A stretch of DNA of 64,000 bases from an uncultured Acidimicrobiia bacterium (lineage in GTDB: Bacteria > Acidobacteriota > Terriglobia > Versatilivoradales > Versatilivoraceae). The stretch lies in contig CAWBAT010000004.1 in NCBI GenBank assembly GCA_963786955.1, forward strand, positions 416,001-480,000, read 5' to 3'. The position numbers were made by a program, and so were the translations under genes. Every line of letters begins with the position of its first letter. Position 1 is the first letter of the stretch. This document shows, in pieces, positions 20,724 to 26,827 of this stretch. Below the pieces are notes generated by a model. The model was not told the origin of the DNA, ran no database searches, and worked only from the letters and a program-made list of their open reading frames with translations.

Positions 20724-23177
20724 TCACATCAAGTCGATGGGATCAATATCGATTTGCAGCCGGCTAAAATCGATTCCTTGCTTTTCACCTTGTGCCAGGC
20801 ATCGTTGCAGCAATTCTTTGAGCGTCTGGCGGGTTTTCGCTTTGATGAGGATCTGGTAGCGATGCTCGTTCTTCAGCCTTGCCAACGGAGAGAGAGCCGG
20901 CCCGAAAATACGAGTTTCGGTGTTTACGAGGCCGGATAAGACATCTGCGAAGCTATTAATCAGCCTGACCGCTCGATCCAGGTTGCGGTCGCGGGACAAA
21001 ATATTCGCCATGGCCGTAAAGGGTGGATAGTGCATCAACTTTCGGAACTTGAGTTCTTTTTCGAAAAACCCTTCATAGTCATGTTTCCGGACAAATTGCA
21101 GGCAGTAATGTTCCGGGAAGTAGGTTTGAATCAAGACCTGTCCCATGAGCTCACCACGGCCAGCCCGTCCTGACATCTGGGTAAATAACTGAAAGGTCCG
21201 CTCGGCGCTCCGAAAATCGGGTAACGAGAGCACACTGTCAGCCGAAAGGATTCCCACCAGGGTGACCTGATGAAAATCGTGTCCTTTCGAAATCATCTGC
21301 GTTCCGGTCAGAATATCAATCTCTCCAGTCTGCACCTGCCGCAGGATCTTCAGATGGGCATTCTTCTTCCGCGCGGTATCTCGATCCAAGCGCGCAATTC
21401 GAGCCTGTGGGAAAATCTTATCCAAGACTGCTTCAATCTTCTCTGTCCCCTCCCCCAGAAAATGAAGATGCTCACTGCCACAAGCCGGACAATTTCCCGG
21501 AACCGCTTGTTCGTAGGAACAATAGTGACACACCAGGCCATTCTTAGATTTATGATAAGTGAGGGTGATGCTGCAATTCCGGCAGCGAATGCTCTGTCCA
21601 CAATGCCGGCAGAGTAAGCTCGCTGAGTACCCTCTCCGGTTGAGGAGCACGAGAGTCTGCTCCTTTCGGGCAAGACGCACTTGGATCTGCTCTTTGAGAA
21701 CACTGGAGAGCGTTGGCTTCTTCCCTCCGATCTTGAACTCTTCTCTCATATCCACTAGGGTGACTTCTGGAAGGGGGCGGTCTTGAACCCGTGACGCTAG
21801 CCGGAGGTATTGATATTTCCCGTTCTTCGCATTGTAAAAAGTCTCAACGGAGGGAGTCGCGGACCCTAAGATGACCACCGCATTTTCCTGCTTTCCTCGC
21901 ACCAACGCTGTATCCCGCCCGTTATAACGTGGGCTTTCGTGTTGCTTAAAGGAAGGATCATGCTCTTCGTCCACGACAATGAGGCCAATGTTGTGGAGCG
22001 GAGCAAAAACGGCCGAGCGGGTTCCGATCACAACCTTGGCTTCTCCTCGACGAATTCTCCACCACTCATCAAAGCGCTCGCCATCAGACAATCCGCTGTG
22101 AAGAATTGCTGAGGCATTTTTCAAGCGCCCGCGAAACTCCTGGGCTACCCGGGGAGTAAGTCCGATTTCCGGCATTAATATCAGGCAAGTTTTCCCCATT
22201 GCCAGGGACTGCTCAATGAGCGTCAAGTAAATTTCGGTTTTTCCGCTTCCGGTCACGCCGTGGAGAAGCCAGGAGGAAAAAGAAGTGGCTTGCAGAGCCT
22301 TGCTTAGTTCCGTGATGGCAGCTTTTTGCTCGATGGTGTGTTCAGGCACAACGGAGAAAGAGGGCTGAGGCATCTCTCGATAGGGGTCACGCTGGAGGCG
22401 TTCTGAGGTGATTCGAATCAGACCCTTTTTCTCCAAGGTGTTGACGGTTGATCGAGAAACCTTCTGCTGAGCGAGTAACTCGGTAAGAGCGATCGGCTCT
22501 TTTCTTTTCTGAAGACACTCCAGAATTTCAAGTTGCCTGGCGGTGAGCTTCAAAGTCCCCGTTTTGGATAAATCCGAAAAAGCCAGAGATACTTGAAGCT
22601 GTGTTTTTTCTGAACAGCTGCTTGGGCTAAAAGAGTGGTCGATCCTCACCCATTGGTTTGAGACAAGTTTCGGCAACATTCGATCGGCCGAGGCAATGCC
22701 GGTTTCATTTTTGAGCTCGAGTGAAGTCAGCGATTTCTTTTGTGCAAGGATCCTGAGAACGCGTGTTTCTTGTTCATTGAGGCCGGGCAATGCCTCAGCC
22801 TTGGCCACCTCTTCTCCTTGACTGGTAATGACTGCGTGTTTGTGGCTTTTGAGGCTGCCCCCCGGCGGTAGACAAGCTTTAAGCACTTCCCCTAAGGAGG
22901 CAAAATAGTAATCCGCAATCCATTGGCTGAGTTTGAACAGGCTGGCTGGAATCACCGGAACCGGGTCGACGACCTTGAGAATGTCCTTGATGGCGACACT
23001 GCTCTGGATTTCTACGGGAAGCTGCGCGTGGGTTTTCACCACAAATCCCATCATCTTCCGGTTTTGAAAAGGGACGAGGACTCTTTGGGCGGGCTGGGCC
23101 GATTCAAAGATTTCTTGCTCACATCGGTAGTAAAAAGTCCGATGAAGTGGTAACGGCAGGGCGACTTCGAGGAACAT
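20724..23177 (-). CDS. priA: Primosomal protein N' (PriA)
   Basis: GVTGSGKT, DEEH, SATPS, a Cys-rich zinc region and QMSGRAGR. Confidence 0.96.
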   Translation of the reverse strand: MFLEVALPLPLHRTFYYRCEQEIFESAQPAQRVLVPFQNRKMMGFVVKTHAQLPVEIQSSVAIKDILKVVDPVPVIPASLFKLSQWIADYYFASLGEVLKACLPPGGSLKSHKHAVITSQGEEVAKAEALPGLNEQETRVLRILAQKKSLTSLELKNETGIASADRMLPKLVSNQWVRIDHSFSPSSCSEKTQLQVSLAFSDLSKTGTLKLTARQLEILECLQKRKEPIALTELLAQQKVSRSTVNTLEKKGLIRITSERLQRDPYREMPQPSFSVVPEHTIEQKAAITELSKALQATSFSSWLLHGVTGSGKTEIYLTLIEQSLAMGKTCLILMPEIGLTPRVAQEFRGRLKNASAILHSGLSDGERFDEWWRIRRGEAKVVIGTRSAVFAPLHNIGLIVVDEEHDPSFKQHESPRYNGRDTALVRGKQENAVVILGSATPSVETFYNAKNGKYQYLRLASRVQDRPLPEVTLVDMREEFKIGGKKPTLSSVLKEQIQVRLARKEQTLVLLNRRGYSASLLCRHCGQSIRCRNCSITLTYHKSKNGLVCHYCSYEQAVPGNCPACGSEHLHFLGEGTEKIEAVLDKIFPQARIARLDRDTARKKNAHLKILRQVQTGEIDILTGTQMISKGHDFHQVTLVGILSADSVLSLPDFRSAERTFQLFTQMSGRAGRGELMGQVLIQTYFPEHYCLQFVRKHDYEGFFEKELKFRKLMHYPPFTAMANILSRDRNLDRAVRLINSFADVLSGLVNTETRIFGPALSPLARLKNEHRYQILIKAKTRQTLKELLQRCLAQGEKQGIDFSRLQIDIDPIDLM

Positions 23178-23511
23178 GCCTTATGGACTTTTGAGTTTAG
23201 GAATGGCTGAGTAAGGGATCACAGCTTTGATATTCGCTTGGCAAACGGCTGCATGAACAATTCTACTGCATCAGAATTGCAGACCTGATTTCCCTACTGC
23301 GCAGTTATTGCCAAACTGTGTTCGTTGAGTTTCACGCGGTTGTGAATCTAATTTCATGCGCTTCATGATAACTTTCATGAGTTTTCATTATGGCCCTGTC
23401 AATAGGCTGGCTCAAGGGATTTCTGCTTGACCGTTGGTCGATGTGTCATTCAGCCTAAGGACTACTATTCGTAATTACGGTGAGCCGTCTTTGGATAGGC
23501 GCCGCGTGAGG

Positions 23512-23570
23512 TTGGAGCTTTGAGAAAGCCCCAAGCCTACAAAATTGTAGGCCGGGTCACCGACCCGGCG
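23512..23570. repeat. Two divergent GTAG-type REP-like hairpins
   Basis: + strand GTAG-GCCGGGTC-ACC-GACCCGGC (23547-23569); - strand GTAG-GC-TTGGGGCTTT-CTC-AAAGCTCCAA (23540-23512). Confidence 0.5.
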
Positions 23571-23849
23571 TAACGGTCACTGTATTTATGAAAAGCATTA
23601 CTTAGTTTCGGGGTGGCGCACCCATTAGAAGGCCTTTGTCAATAGAACAAACTACCCCTTGAGTGCGACGTAGACTTTTTTGCAAAGGCTCCCTTGCCAG
23701 ATTCCTTTCTCGATCTTCAGAGCTAGCGGCTCATCGAGGACCGTACGCTGTCTACCGGCGGCCTTAGCTGGGTCTACGGGCTAAATTCCTTAGCTTTCTC
23801 CAGCCATGATTCGAACTGGAGAAGGCGGAAGGATCCCGGCCGAGTTTTT

Positions 23850-24177
23850 GAACCACGCACCCAGGGTTTTCTTGCTTGAGGATCGGCTCGTATCGAGTCC
23901 GTCCATGCACCCATCAGGATCAAGGCTATCGAGGACCATTGGCCTCATTAGCCCCTGGCGCCGTGCGGCGCCCCAGAAAATCGTTGGTACCAGACCGTGT
24001 CCAATGGGCGTGACCGGGTCACAGAATCGGTGGTTCTCCAAGCCAACCGGCTTGGACCAGCGCCGGGCAGGCTCGCGGTCTGGGCGTGCTCGAAAACATC
24101 AGCCTATATCGGGACGGGGACTGTGTCCAATCAGACAGCTGGATTTACACCAGCGCCACCCAAGGCTCACAGCCCCC
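23850..24177 (-). ncRNA. Putative bridge/seek RNA in the 3' non-coding end of the IS
   Basis: Stem-closed internal loops carry guides that match the target (GGGTGGCGC; TGTCTG) and the donor junction (ACGATTTTC vs ATGATTATC; CTGATGGGTG vs CTAATGGGTG). Exact RNA ends are unknown. Confidence 0.75.
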
Positions 24178-24185
24178 ACCCAGCT

Positions 24186-25205
24186 TTAGCTGCTGAACAA
24201 GCGGGTCGGTTCAAACCGCACCTGATCTCGCAGCACATAATAACAGGCCCGCGCCAGCTTGTGAGCCAGGGCCTTAATTGCCAGCGTCCGATTGACGGCG
24301 GCTGTTTTCCGTTCCACAAATCGTCGGGCTGACCCATACGACCGGGCCGCGTGGGTCGCTGCCTCCACAAAGGCCCAGGCCAGATACCGGTTGCCGTTAT
24401 GGCGGTTGTTCTCCCCTTTCTTCTTCTGGTTGCTCAACCGGGTGCTGGCGACACAGCGGCAGTAAGAGGCGTAATCACCGACTTGAGGGAATCGCCCGAT
24501 GTCGCCGGTCTCCAGCCAGATGGTCAGGGCGAGAATTGGTCCCACCCCATAGACACTTTGCAACAACTCAAAGGAGGCTTCCGGCTTGGCCTGGCTCTTG
24601 AGCTGTTTCTCAATGACCGCAATCTGTTTGTCCAGAGCCTGGATCACCAGCAGCGAACTCTCCACCGCCAGCCTCCGTTCCCGGTCGGGAAACAACTCCC
24701 GAACCTCGGCGACACTCAGCTGCCGAATCGGGGTGTCGGGACTGCGCCGTCCCTGGTGGCGACTCAACAGATTGTTGACGTGCAATAACTGACTGGTGCA
24801 TTGCCTCACCAGAAAACTGCGTTGTCGCAACAGATCTCTCAGTGGCCGCTGCCCAGCCGGGTAAATGTAGCCGGTTGGCAAAAGCTTCAGCCGCAGCATC
24901 TCCCCCAGCCAGCGCGCATCTGACTTGTCGTCACTGTACTTGAGCCCCTGGTACTGCTGCATCGCATTCGGGTTGGCCAGCTTCACCGAGTAGCCCGCTT
25001 CCTTCAGTCCATCCACCAACCAGTACCAGTTGTAGGTCGACTCCACGGCCAGCTCCACAATCTGCTCTCGATACGGCTCTAGTTGCTCTAGCACCACCAT
25101 CATCTCATTGGGCAACCGACACCGATGCACCACGATTCCTCCTTCGTCCAGCAGCACCAGATAACTGTTGTTGGCATGCAGATCGATTCCGCCATATAGT
25201 TTCAT
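24186..25205 (-). CDS. IS110-family transposase/recombinase (DEDD RuvC-like + Tnp domain)
   Basis: GIDLH, VESTYNW, SDDKSDARWL, SVYGVGPI and STRLSN motifs. AAGGAG RBS upstream. Confidence 0.95.
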   Translation of the reverse strand: MKLYGGIDLHANNSYLVLLDEGGIVVHRCRLPNEMMVVLEQLEPYREQIVELAVESTYNWYWLVDGLKEAGYSVKLANPNAMQQYQGLKYSDDKSDARWLGEMLRLKLLPTGYIYPAGQRPLRDLLRQRSFLVRQCTSQLLHVNNLLSRHQGRRSPDTPIRQLSVAEVRELFPDRERRLAVESSLLVIQALDKQIAVIEKQLKSQAKPEASFELLQSVYGVGPILALTIWLETGDIGRFPQVGDYASYCRCVASTRLSNQKKKGENNRHNGNRYLAWAFVEAATHAARSYGSARRFVERKTAAVNRTLAIKALAHKLARACYYVLRDQVRFEPTRLFSS

Positions 25206-25292
25206 CAGAGGTCTCCTTTCGGGATTAAGTTCGGTACTTAACCCTGAGTCTATCCCATTCGGATAGACTCAGGAGGCCTTCTAGATGATTAT

Positions 25293-25399
25293 CAGACATG
25301 TGGTTTTTGCATGTCTGCGCCAGTCGACAATCGAAAGGCCTGGCCTCAGCGCATGCATTCAATTCGAAGACATGCACACAGCGCATATCTTCACCACCC
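25293..25399. repeat. REPIN-like repeat, copy A (its left end GGGTGGCG is displaced to 23611-23618 by the IS)
   Basis: 107-nt near-identical direct repeat of 27162-27268. Two hairpins with GGGTGG...CCACCC termini. Confidence 0.8.
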
Positions 25400-25472
25400 A
25401 GCGAAATCTATGGAGCAACATAATACAGGCCATTCGCTGATGCCGAAGTCTGTTGCCAACTGAACTAGCTGG

Positions 25473-26827
25473 TCAATCCTTGATGGCCTGGTAAGCCAAA
25501 TTCAATGTCTTTGAGGCCAGGTTCAGGCCTCCGGTTGGATGTAGCTGTCCCATAAAGATTGCAATCATGTCTTCTTTGGGGTCGATCACGAACGAAGTAT
25601 AGAAGAATCCCCCCCAATAATAGGCCCCGAGCGAGCCCAATTCGGTCAGATGTCTAGGCTCGCCGTTGACGCCAAAACCAAGCCCATAGCCCATGTCGTC
25701 GAGCTTTCCCTGGACGTGATTTTGCGAGACGAGTTCAACAGACTTCCGGCTCAGCAGGCGTACACCATTCAACTCACCGCCCTTCAGCAGCATCTGGCAA
25801 AACCGGTAATAATCTTCGGCTGTTGAGCACAGCCCCCCCCACCGGAAAAGTAAGTCCGGGGCCCATGGTAGGGATAATCGGAAGAATAGACAAACGCTCC
25901 TTCTTCAACGACCTGTTTCTCGGCAAATGGCTGGAGCCCCTTTGCAGGATAGTAGGTATAGGCGGTTGCCAGCCGTGTTAGTTTCTCTTCCGGCACAAAG
26001 AAACAGGTGTCCTTCATCCCCATTGGTTTAAAGATCCGTTCCCGGAAGAACTGGTCAAGCGTCATCCCTGAAATCACTTCGACCAGGTATCCCAACACAT
26101 CGTCCGAAAGACTGTATTCCCAGGCCTCACCAGGCTGAAAGAGGAGAGGGAGAGAAGCGAGCTTCCTTACCGCATCACCGATGCTCCCTTCCTGCGGGAA
26201 CAGGCCGTGACCAATACTGGCTTCCCGATATCCCTTACCCAGACGATCGTTCCAGTGGTAGGTGAGTCCGGAAGTATGCGTGAGCAGGTGGCGGATCGTG
26301 ATGGGGCGTCTGGCATCTGTCAGGAATCCCGGAGGGGAGGTCTTGTCCTGAGGAAAGGGGGGGTCCAGAACCTTCATATTCTTGAATTCCGGGATAAAGT
26401 TGGAGACGGGATCGTTCAACAGGAAACGTCCTTCCTCGTAGAGCATCATCACGGCCACACTGGTAATAGGCTTGGTCATGGAGCAGATCCGAAAGATCTG
26501 GTCCGTGTGCATGGGCGTCCTGGCCTCCCGGTTCGCCATGCCGAACGCTTTGAAATAGGCAACCTTGCCGTGGCGAGCAACAAGTGTGACGGCGCCAGCG
26601 ATGCGGCTGTCGTCAATGCTTTTCTGGACTACATTGTCGATTCGTTCAAGGCGCTCCGATGAAAGTTCTACATCTTCTGGAGAACCGGCCGATGCGACTG
26701 TTTCAGAATGAAGTGAGGTTGTTTTGGATACAGCCAACTTCTTGGCTGACGATTCGGGGCGGACTACGAGTCCCAGGGAGATTACTAACAGCAGGGAGAA
26801 CGATAATTTCCGAGCGAAATTGTTCAT
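25473..26827 (-). pseudogene. Beta-lactamase-related serine hydrolase, frameshifted at a C8 run (25833-25840)
   Basis: SMTK, HLLTHTSGL and WEYS in the first ORF; YYWGG in the second. One more G would restore SGGGGLCSTAEDYYRF. Confidence 0.8.

What the first reader, a model, noticed from the sequence alone, without database searches (positions are those of the whole stretch)
24116..24177. Target-binding loop matches the reconstructed insertion site
Seen: the pre-insertion site is GGGTGGCG-CA-GACATG (23611-23620 joined to 25295 onward). The left guide GGGUGGCGC (24161-24153) is a 9/9 match to the top strand up to the first core base. The right guide UGUCUG (24137-24132) is a 6/6 match to the bottom strand and ends in the core. 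The left guide is followed by UGG, as in IS621. Inference: RNA-guided targeting can be read directly from this locus, and the element is a candidate programmable recombinase with a CA core.
Basis: partly seen in the sequence, partly recalled or inferred. Interest (0 to 1): 0.8.

Follow-up and report, generated by a model that had tools for sequence, protein, structure and literature searches.

The report
IS1111-type insertion sequence guide RNA
A mobile element of a known RNA-guided family carries, just after its transposase gene, an RNA loop whose two short guides match the DNA site that all three of its copies occupy; it is an ordinary new member of that family.

Summary
Window 23621-25294 (minus strand) is a 1674-bp IS110-family element of the IS1111 group. 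It has a 339-aa DEDD transposase, an 89-nt left end, a 565-nt right end and 10-bp subterminal inverted repeats.

Directly after the stop codon lies a stem-loop (24181-24111). [quoted passage not shown]

- All 3 of 3 genomic copies have these flanks, and no free exact site is left.
- 45 free sites differ by one base; 27 of them differ only at the first core base.
- Across 44 related elements the guides fit their own flanks better than other elements' flanks (0 of 10000 permutations).

I also found donor guides (23984-23976 and 23915-23908), handshake-like dinucleotides, and a junction promoter TTGACA-N17-GATAAT.

The architecture is that of published IS1111 seekRNAs and bridge RNAs (2024), mirrored relative to IS621. 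Verdict: a new member of a known kind. RNA-guided targeting is well supported by sequence, but RNA expression and activity are untested. One unexplained extra is a second target-loop-like module (24084-23990) that co-varies with the first.

The parts
23621..25294 (-). Whole insertion sequence, 1674 bp, counted with one copy of the core dinucleotide (CA at 25293-25294; the other CA is at 23619-23620).
   Evidence: Three full-length copies in the own genome at 100% listed identity (bit scores 3020, 3020, 3015), with identical ends. Only CA is common to both junctions.
24186..25205 (-). Transposase gene, 339 aa (DEDD/RuvC-like N-terminal domain plus Transposase_20 C-terminal domain).
   Evidence: Pfam PF01548 (51.4 bits) and PF02371 (51.4 bits). 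NCBIfam NF033542 'IS110 family RNA-guided transposase', 180.9 bits against a cut-off of 140. PDB ISCro4 9t56 E 8e-9 and IS621 8wt6 E 2e-7.
24111..24181 (-). Target-binding stem-loop (seekRNA / target-binding loop of the bridge RNA). It starts 5 nt after the stop codon, and the finding's interval 24116-24177 lies inside it. The outer stem is 24181-24168 with 24125-24111.
   Evidence: Fold -41.4 kcal/mol, z -3.56, 0 of 200 shuffles as stable. Outer stem on 43 family sequences: 68.1% of cells paired against 55.2% shuffled, covariation score 0.400 against 0.186, 0 of 500 shuffles.
24153..24163 (-). 5' target guide, (UU)GGGUGGCGC. It pairs with the element-sense top strand of the right half-site plus the second core base. 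There are 9 pairs in the window copy and up to 11 (one G.U) at the two other copies.
   Evidence: Family test: mean run against own flank 6.39, against other loci 4.90, 0 of 10000 permutations.
24139..24153 (-). Apical hairpin CUGG-UGUAAAU-CCAG between the two guides.
   Evidence: The TGG is nearly invariant in the family.
24132..24137 (-). 3' target guide UGUCUG. It is identical to the element-sense top strand of the left half-site plus the core, so it pairs with the bottom strand.
   Evidence: Family test: own 5.93 against other 3.82, 0 of 10000 permutations.
24127..24131 (-). Conserved AUUGG after the 3' target guide. Its first two bases, AU (24131-24130), equal the first two bases of the element's left end, making a handshake-like dinucleotide.
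   Evidence: The dinucleotide equals the first two bases of the left end in 41 of 42 loci. It co-varies in 4 of them (AA with AAAATC in 3 loci, AG with AGACTC in 1).
23990..24084 (-). Module 2, a paralogue of the target-binding loop (GAGCC - guide-like - UGG - hairpin - CCA - guide-like - UG ... AUUGGACA). It is enclosed by the stem CCAGACCG/CGGUCUGG. Its role is unexplained.
   Evidence: Its 3' segment resembles the same element's 3' target guide (4.90 against 3.92 of 7, 0 of 10000 permutations). The last 5 nt of its 5' segment do likewise (3.44 against 2.97, 0 of 10000). Compared directly with flanks, only the left side is significant.
23976..23984 (-). 5' donor guide ACGAUUUUC, followed by UGG. 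It pairs with the second core base plus the start of the left end (ATAATCAT): 7 of 9 pairs, with a U.T mismatch at position 2 that is common in the family.
   Evidence: Own 6.90 against other 6.48 of 10, 1 of 10000 permutations. Compensatory examples: ATAAGCAT with GCUUUUC, ATACGCAT with GCGUUUC.
23906..23915 (-). 3' donor guide GAUGGGUG (23915-23908). It is identical to the right end ATGGG plus core TG. It is followed by CA (23907-23906), a handshake-like dinucleotide that matches the first base of the right half-site.
   Evidence: 41 of 41 loci pair 8 of 8 (Watson-Crick plus G.U). All 7 loci with a non-GGG right end co-vary (GTG, GGC, GAG, GGA). The following dinucleotide equals the first two flank bases in 45 of 51 loci, 0 of 10000 permutations.
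23626..23642 (-). Right-end -35 box TTGACA (23642-23637) and subterminal inverted repeat AGGCCTTCTA (23635-23626).
25274..25294 (-). Left end: core TG (25294-25293), -10 box GATAAT (25293-25288) and subterminal inverted repeat TAGAAGGCCT (25283-25274).
   Evidence: Joining the ends gives TTGACA-N17-GATAAT.
23611..23620 (+). Flanking half-site GGGTGGCG plus core CA. In element sense this is the right half-site.
25295..25321 (+). Flanking half-site GACATG, then the loop and 3' arm of the REP-like palindrome (loop 25301-25309, arm 25310-25321).

Best explanation
This is an intact, recently active insertion sequence of the IS1111 group of the IS110 family.

**RNA and guides.** Its transposase mRNA runs on into a structured non-coding RNA. 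The first stem-loop of that RNA (24181-24111) is the target-binding loop.
- Its 5' strand pairs with one DNA strand of the half-site on one side of the core.
- Its 3' strand pairs with the other DNA strand of the half-site on the other side.
- Both strands cover the core dinucleotide (TG in element sense, CA on the window's plus strand).
- Further downstream, two segments in a multi-branched region (23984-23976 and 23915-23908) pair in the same way with the element's own left and right ends.
- A dinucleotide after each 3' guide matches the partner DNA that is joined after strand exchange.

**Reaction (inferred).** The DEDD/serine recombinase, held on this RNA, recombines the circular form of the element with the site GGGTGGCG|CA|GACATG. 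That site is one arm of a REP-like palindrome. The circular form carries a promoter, TTGACA-N17-GATAAT, made by joining the ends.

**Shown here by sequence:**
- the anatomy of the element;
- the guide-to-site matches at 3 of 3 copies;
- family-wide co-variation of all four guides and of both handshake-like dinucleotides.

**Inferred from published work on ISEc11, ISPa11, ISKpn4 and IS621:**
- that the RNA is made and binds the protein;
- that recombination goes through a circle.
For: **Family assignment**
- Family domains and an NCBIfam equivalog above its cut-off.
- Distant match to the solved IS621 and ISCro4 recombinases. The Ser of the C-terminal motif aligns with the IS621 ESG serine.
- IS1111 anatomy: 89-nt left end, 565-nt right end, 10-bp subterminal repeats.

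**The window's own guides and sites**
- Guides match 9/9 and 6/6; 6 of 20000 shuffles do as well.
- 3 of 3 copies sit in the same site, with different surroundings.
- In the own genome there are 0 free exact 14-nt sites and 45 free sites with one mismatch. Of these, 27 differ only at the first core base. None of the 45 is occupied.

**Relatives**
- Target guides track their own flanks in 44 non-redundant relatives, 0 of 10000 permutations for each guide.
- The relative at 63% protein identity has guide GGUGACGC with flank CGTCAC.
- The outer stem co-varies.
- Donor guides co-vary with the element ends.
- Handshake-like dinucleotides: 45 of 51 and 41 of 42 loci.
- A junction promoter forms when the ends are joined.

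**Published work**
- Published IS1111 seekRNAs lie downstream of tnp. Their top-strand match is 5' of the bottom-strand match (PMC11187229, sections 6, 9, 12).
Against: **No direct evidence that the RNA exists or acts**
- The only RNA-library signal is one 262-nt contig covering 23970-24231 with 6 differences. Contigs cannot show transcription or RNA ends.
- Rfam gave no match.
- No empty orthologous site was found: the same-genus genome has unrelated sequence at this spot.

**Imperfect fits among relatives**
- Not every relative fits. L073 and L087 give short runs.
- L030's 3' guide has an internal mismatch to its flank.
- The decayed same-genus copy (L033) sits in the same site with drifted guides.
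- With Watson-Crick pairs only, the 5' guide statistic is small (1.93 against 1.56, 16 of 10000). This is because most relatives place U opposite the core G.

**Weak points in the window element and in the statistics**
- The window's 5' donor guide has 2 mismatches in 9.
- Its donor-side handshake-like dinucleotide matches only 1 of 2 bases.
- The C-terminal motif reads S-N, where the literature gives S(T)-G.
- Related loci are not independent, so the permutation counts overstate significance.
Confidence: 0.88

Rival explanations
1. The transposase itself recognises the REP-like palindrome by shape or sequence. On this view the 9+6 match in the non-coding end is a coincidence, or a captured piece of the repeat.
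For: The target is a structured palindrome with many copies in the genome. IS elements that target REP sequences were described before any RNA was known (recalled; also cited in PMC12288879). No RNA or binding data exist for this element.
Against: - The two matches lie on opposite DNA strands, split by a hairpin, so they are not a copied piece of the repeat.
- Only 6 of 20000 shuffles match as well.
- The equivalent segments change together with the flanks in 44 relatives, most of which target non-palindromic sites.
- 27 palindromes that differ only at one core base are unoccupied.
Confidence: 0.04
2. The three copies spread by duplication or by homologous recombination between repeats, not by site-specific transposition. 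The shared flanks would then be inherited rather than chosen.
For: Two copies lie only 624 bp apart, head to head, on one contig. The genome is rich in repeats.
Against: - Identity stops 10-13 nt outside the left junction.
- The palindrome loops on the right differ: TGGTTTTTG, TGGTTTGCG and CGCAGTGTG.
- In three other metagenome studies, contigs break at 23611-23614 and 25300. This is as expected if many copies share only the half-sites.
Confidence: 0.03
3. The element works like IS621, with the guide RNA in the left end upstream of the transposase. The downstream loop would then be irrelevant.
For: The short left end contains a hairpin (25270-25246).
Against: - The left end is only 89 nt, and no 6-nt or longer match to the target was found outside the 3' region. 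However, the scan covered the 3' region only, so this point rests on eye inspection.
- Subterminal repeats, a long right end and the guide order are all of the IS1111 type (PMC11187229).
- All co-variation signals lie downstream of the gene.
Confidence: 0.02

Closest known systems
IS1111-group seekRNA elements ISEc11, ISPa11, ISKpn4 (Siddiquee et al. 2024, PMC11187229)
   Same: - The transposase is about 340 aa (ISEc11: 339 aa).
- The long non-coding region lies downstream of tnp, and there are subterminal inverted repeats.
- The guide RNA starts just after the stop codon.
- The segment complementary to the top strand lies 5' of the one complementary to the bottom strand, and the matches overlap at the insertion point.
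- Some members target REP sequences (ISPa11).
- A promoter forms at the circle junction.
   Different: - The target site is different.
- The window's transposase was not compared directly with theirs, because no tool supplied their sequences.
- The C-terminal motif reads S-N rather than S(T)-G.
- The paper leaves the role of the longer RNA open. Here that longer part carries donor guides and a second target-like module.
- Their figures and supplements were not visible to me.
IS621 bridge RNA (Durrant et al. 2024, PMC11208160; Hiraizumi et al. 2024; PMC13626964)
   Same: - Each loop has a longer 5' guide (8-9 nt) and a shorter 3' guide (4-7 nt) that pair with opposite DNA strands.
- Both guides include the core dinucleotide.
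- There are separate target and donor guides.
- Handshake dinucleotides pair with the exchanged strand.
- It inserts into REP sequences.
- The recombinase fold is related (E 2e-7).
   Different: - In IS621 the RNA is upstream of the gene, in a long left end; here it is downstream.
- Relative to the transposase gene the guide arrangement here is mirrored.
- The donor guides sit in a multi-branched region instead of a simple internal loop.
- The core is TG/CA, whereas the IS621 papers give CT.
- Protein similarity is very low (33.6 bits).
ISGsu4-like transposases (label carried by the closest annotated plasmid genes)
   Same: These are the best annotated matches: about 49% identity over 99% of the protein (hits H4 and H6).
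   Different: Identity is below 52% to anything annotated in the plasmid collection, so this is a separate, unnamed element. I did not check the ends or the RNA of ISGsu4 itself.

Membership tests
IS110 family (DEDD transposases) | N-terminal DEDD/RuvC-like domain plus C-terminal Transposase_20 domain | tested here: met
   PF01548 E 1.4e-13 and PF02371 E 1.5e-13, both above their cut-offs. NF033542 at 180.9 bits against a cut-off of 140.
IS110 family (DEDD transposases) | Site-specific insertion without terminal inverted repeats and without a target duplication beyond the core dinucleotide | tested here: met
   3 of 3 copies sit in the same site. Only CA is present at both junctions.
IS1111 group | Subterminal inverted repeats of 7-17 bp | tested here: met
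   10 bp: TAGAAGGCCT (25283-25274) and AGGCCTTCTA (23635-23626).
IS1111 group | Short left end, with the long non-coding region downstream of the transposase gene | tested here: met
   89 nt upstream and 565 nt downstream.
IS1111 group | Transposase of 330-350 aa with the C-terminal motif GL-P----S(t)G | tested here: inconclusive
   The length is 339 aa. The aligned stretch reads CRCVASTRLSN. The Ser aligns with the Ser of IS621 'ESG', but the next residue is Asn in all 6 aligned clade members.
seekRNA / bridge RNA | Two short RNA segments in one loop that match opposite strands of the target and overlap at the core; in IS1111 the top-strand-complementary one comes first | tested here: met
   9 nt and 6 nt, in the expected order. 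6 of 20000 shuffles do as well.
seekRNA / bridge RNA | Guides co-vary with the flanks across orthologues | tested here: met
   44 loci, 0 of 10000 permutations for each guide with Watson-Crick plus G.U scoring. Three of the 47 loci were dropped beforehand for implausible core calls (L039, L077, L100).
seekRNA / bridge RNA | Donor-binding guides that match the element's own ends | tested here: met
   3' donor guide: 41 of 41 loci pair fully, and 7 of 7 variant ends co-vary. 5' donor guide: 1 of 10000 permutations.
seekRNA / bridge RNA | Conserved stem-loop scaffold around the guides | tested here: met
   z -3.56. The outer stem co-varies, 0 of 500 shuffles, and the slid controls are lower. The apical helix was badly aligned by MAFFT and is uninformative (47.6% paired).
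seekRNA / bridge RNA | The RNA is transcribed, processed and bound by the transposase | not testable with these tools
   Only a contig from one RNA library covers 23970-24231. Contigs show neither transcription nor RNA ends.
seekRNA / bridge RNA | Promoter formed at the circle junction | tested here: met
   Joining the ends in silico gives TTGACA-N17-GATAAT. The circle itself was not observed.
Rfam RNA families | Match to a curated covariance model | tested here: not met
   0 matches at E up to 1 over window 23000-26000.

The most novel reading that the evidence does not exclude
The long 3' RNA of this IS1111 clade may carry three guide-bearing parts, not two. Besides the target loop and the donor guides there is a second, weaker copy of the target loop (24084-23990). 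It is nested among the donor guides, and both of its arms change together with the first loop when an element is retargeted.

It could read the target half-sites that flank an integrated copy. The donor-side multi-loop would then hold all four half-sites of the two junctions, and would serve excision.

That would account for two published points. Siddiquee et al. found that the donor must sit in the correct target for movement. They also left the role of the long seekRNA open.
Probability: 0.25. Interest if true: 0.6.

Novelty: new member of a known kind. Interest (0 to 1): 0.3.

Why it matters
The locus is a clean natural example of RNA-guided site choice that can be read from sequence alone.
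- Every exact site in the genome is filled.
- 27 sites that differ only at one core base are empty.
- Close relatives show natural retargeting.

It adds one more orthologue, from an uncultured sediment bacterium, to the pool of possible bridge or seek recombinases. It does not change what is known about how they work.

The family-wide by-products may be useful to people working on the less studied IS1111 branch. These are donor guides in a multi-loop, handshake-like dinucleotides, and a second target-like module.

Tried and rejected
- **Rfam scan of 23000-26000.** Nothing found.
- **Orthologous empty site.** The same-genus genome G002 keeps both neighbouring genes, but has unrelated sequence where the repeat and the target lie. 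No before/after comparison was possible.
- **Sequencing runs.**
  - Only assembled contigs were available.
  - No joint skipping the element and no circle joint was listed.
  - The two listed joints (24005 to 24370 and 24283 to 24361) come from single contigs at under 95% likeness, and I take them as other relatives.
  - Parts without cover say nothing.
  - The RNA-library contig is no proof of transcription.
- **First automatic calls.** My first call of the target loop picked wrong anchors and was replaced. My first extraction of the 5' segment was faulty (766 of 10000) and was redone.
- **Module 2 against flanks.** Its 5' segment against the right flank was not significant (853 of 10000 with Watson-Crick pairs only, 1338 of 10000 with G.U allowed).
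- **RNAalifold on the MAFFT alignment.** It gave a weak consensus (-4.25 kcal/mol) and proposed pairing between the two guides, which I did not adopt.
- **Literature.** In the passages I read in five papers and in three searches, I found no description of a second target-like loop or of handshake dinucleotides in IS1111 elements. Figures and supplements were not visible, so this is not a claim of absence.

Full report
**What is there**

The finding's interval lies in the non-coding stretch just downstream of a 339-aa ORF on the minus strand (24186-25205).
- The protein has the two Pfam domains of IS110-family transposases.
- It passes NCBI's equivalog model 'IS110 family RNA-guided transposase' at 180.9 bits, cut-off 140.
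- It is distantly similar to the solved IS621 and ISCro4 recombinases (E 2e-7 and 8e-9).

A search of the window's own genome with 23621-25294 returns three full-length copies at 100% listed identity (bit scores 3020, 3020, 3015). The element is therefore 1674 bp long.
- In the transposase's sense it has an 89-nt left end and a 565-nt right end.
- It has 10-bp subterminal inverted repeats (TAGAAGGCCT / AGGCCTTCTA).
- This is the anatomy of the IS1111 group, not of the IS621-type group. The sources are PMC11208160 (passages read) and PMC11187229 (section 6).

**The observation**

- The left flank ends GGGTGGCG CA, and the right flank starts GACATG after the element's terminal CA.
- The minus-strand RNA reads GGGUGGCGC (24161-24153), then UGG, a short hairpin, and UGUCUG (24137-24132).
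- CA is the only dinucleotide common to both junctions.
- Keeping one CA rebuilds a perfect 12-bp palindrome with a 9-nt loop. This is independent support for the boundaries.
- In 20000 dinucleotide-preserving shuffles of the 565-nt end, 6 gave a guide pair as long, in the right order and within 60 nt.

All 3 of 3 copies are flanked by GGGTGGCG CA ... CA GACATG. Sequence further out differs, and so do the palindrome loops. These are therefore independent insertions.

The site is one arm of a REP-like repeat. Counts in the own genome are as follows.
- The 14-nt site GGGTGGCG-CA-GACA has 0 free exact copies.
- It has 45 free copies with one mismatch.
- 27 of those differ only at the first core base (AA for CA).
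- 8 read GGCTGGCG..., and 4 read ...GGCACA....
- None of the 45 is occupied.

So the element has filled every exact site and no near-site. This fits guide pairing plus a need for a matching core.

**RNA scaffold**

The 91 nt after the stop codon fold into an outer stem, an internal loop carrying the two guides, and an apical hairpin (-41.4 kcal/mol, z -3.56).

On 43 family sequences the outer stem plus a CC/GG closing pair gave these figures.
- 68.1% of cells are paired, against 55.2% in shuffles.
- The covariation score is 0.400 against 0.186 (0 of 500 shuffles).
- All slid controls are lower.
- The apical helix was misaligned and says nothing.

Rfam has no matching family.

**Relatives**

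- A protein search of 61 related genomes, the own genome included, found the transposase in 13.
- A scan of species-representative genomes confirmed 545 of 600 candidate stretches as encoding a relative. The best 80 loci were kept. They have 48-70% identity and come from many phyla.
- Ends could be called from conserved terminal motifs (left end ATAATCATCTAG..., right end ...TTGAC-N-TAATGGG).
- For 47 non-redundant loci with a target loop and both ends, I dropped 3 with implausible core calls (L039, L077, L100). On the remaining 44 I scored contiguous pairing from the core outward.
  - 5' guide: mean run against own flank 6.39, against other loci's flanks 4.90.
  - 3' guide: 5.93 against 3.82.
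  - Both gave 0 of 10000 permutations with Watson-Crick plus G.U pairs.
  - With Watson-Crick pairs only, the 3' guide holds (4.66 against 2.88, 0 of 10000). The 5' guide is weak (1.93 against 1.56, 16 of 10000), because most relatives put U opposite the core G.
- Most relatives target ...AGACC|TG|ACCCC... with guide ...GGGGU.
- The window's element reads GGGUGGCGC for CGCCACCC. Its 63%-identical relative reads GGUGACGC for CGTCAC. These are natural retargetings.
- The core is TG in most loci. It is CG on both sides in L059, L089 and L094, with the 3' guide of L059 ending CG.

Exceptions exist. L073 and L087 fit poorly. L030's 3' guide has an internal mismatch. The broken same-genus copy L033 sits in the window's site with drifted guides.

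**Donor side**

Two conserved downstream segments behave as donor guides.
- GAUGGGUG (23915-23908) equals the right end plus core.
  - In 41 of 41 loci the segment pairs 8 of 8 with its own end.
  - All 7 loci with a different end (GTG, GGC, GAG, GGA) carry the matching change.
- ACGAUUUUC (23984-23976), again followed by UGG, pairs with the core G plus the start of the left end.
  - In the window this is 7 of 9 pairs.
  - Own 6.90 against other 6.48 of 10, 1 of 10000 permutations.
  - There are compensatory changes where the left end differs.
- A fold of 24100-23880 puts these segments in single-stranded linkers of a multi-branched region. [quoted passage not shown]

**Handshake-like dinucleotides**

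- The two bases after the 3' target guide (AU, 24131-24130) equal the first two bases of the left end in 41 of 42 loci. There are 4 co-varying cases.
- The two bases after the 3' donor guide equal the first two bases of the right flank in 45 of 51 loci.
  - The first base matches in 49 of 51 (0 of 10000 permutations).
  - Among the 10 loci whose flank does not start AC, 5 match fully and 9 match at the first base.
- In the window the donor-side pair is CA against flank CG, so 1 of 2 bases matches.
- This is the logic of the IS621 handshake guides, which pair better after strand exchange and favour insertion (PMC13626964, passages).

**Junction promoter**

Joining the two ends in silico gives TTGACA-N17-GATAAT in front of the transposase gene. 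This is the junction promoter described for this family (PMC11187229, PMC12288879; passages).

**How it compares**

- Guide lengths (9 and 6 nt), the use of both DNA strands and the overlap at the core are as in IS621 (PMC11208160).
- Relative to the transposase gene, however, the segment complementary to the top strand comes first. Siddiquee et al. report this for all IS1111 members they tested, and the reverse for the IS110 type (sections 9 and 12).
- The closest annotated proteins are 'ISGsu4 family' transposases at about 49% identity, so the element is unnamed.
- The C-terminal motif has Ser-Asn where the literature gives Ser/Thr-Gly. The Asn is invariant in the 6 aligned clade members.

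**An unexplained extra**

Between the target loop and the 5' donor guide lies a stem-enclosed module (24084-23990). It repeats the layout of the target loop: GAGCC, a guide-like stretch, UGG, a hairpin, CCA, a guide-like stretch ending UG, then ...AUUGGACA.
- Its 3' stretch resembles the 3' target guide of the same element more than those of other elements (4.90 against 3.92 of 7; 0 of 10000).
- The core-near 5 nt of its 5' stretch do likewise (3.44 against 2.97; 0 of 10000).
- In the window both loops read GGCGCUGG where the family consensus is GGGGUUGG.
- Compared directly with flanks, only the left side is significant (1 of 10000). The right side is not (853 of 10000).
- Relatedness of the loci inflates all these counts.
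- I found no description of such a module in the text I could read.

**What is missing**

- There is no evidence that the RNA is made or bound.
- Public runs gave contigs only. DNA contigs from three other studies break at 23611-23614 and 25300, just outside the half-sites, as expected for a multi-copy element with shared half-sites.
- One RNA-library contig covers 23970-24231.
- No orthologous empty site exists in the same-genus genome.

**Verdict**

The thing is a new, apparently active member of the already described IS1111 class of RNA-guided insertion sequences.

Noticed in passing
window 23990-24084 (minus strand): A second module shaped like the target loop lies between the target loop and the donor guides. 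Its two guide-like arms co-vary with the first loop across the family. Its function is unknown.
   Followed up: partly
window 23455-23606: A repeat of about 150 nt lies directly left of the insertion site. It gave 42 matches in the own genome and many in two related genomes, and it contains short hairpins, so it looks like a MITE-like or REP-cluster unit.
   Followed up: partly
own genome, many loci (for example window 25295-25321 and its paralogues): There is a REP-like palindrome family with two variants. G-AA-GACATG...CATGTCTTC occurs at 24 loci and G-CA-GACATG...CATGTCTGC at 7 loci. The insertion sequence uses only the rarer CA variant when it is preceded by GGGTGGCG.
   Followed up: partly
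own genome contig C6 near 285547: A palindrome with the same left half-site and the same loop as the window's target lacks two bases (GGGTGGCGCA directly followed by CATG...). It may be a repeat variant or a footprint of imprecise excision.
   Followed up: no
own genome contig C3, 299154-300827 and 301452-303125: The two other copies lie head to head, left ends facing each other, 624 bp apart. Each sits in its own palindrome. Such a pair could invert or mobilise the segment between them.
   Followed up: no
window 25473-26827 (minus strand): Two overlapping ORFs of 347 and 106 aa lie on the same strand (25784-26827 and 25473-25793). They look like one gene split by a frameshift near 25784-25793. 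I ran no family search on them.
   Followed up: no
L033 = L009 (same-genus genome G002): A decayed copy of the same element (71% identity, 3 in-frame stops) sits in the same kind of site, CATGTC|TG|CGCCACCC. Its guide segments have drifted. The element has therefore been in this genus for some time.
   Followed up: partly
transposase residues about 248-264 (window 24414-24464, minus strand): The clade has an invariant motif SYCR.V.S....(S/T)N..KKG, with Asn where published IS1111 and IS110 transposases have Gly after the catalytic Ser/Thr.
   Followed up: partly
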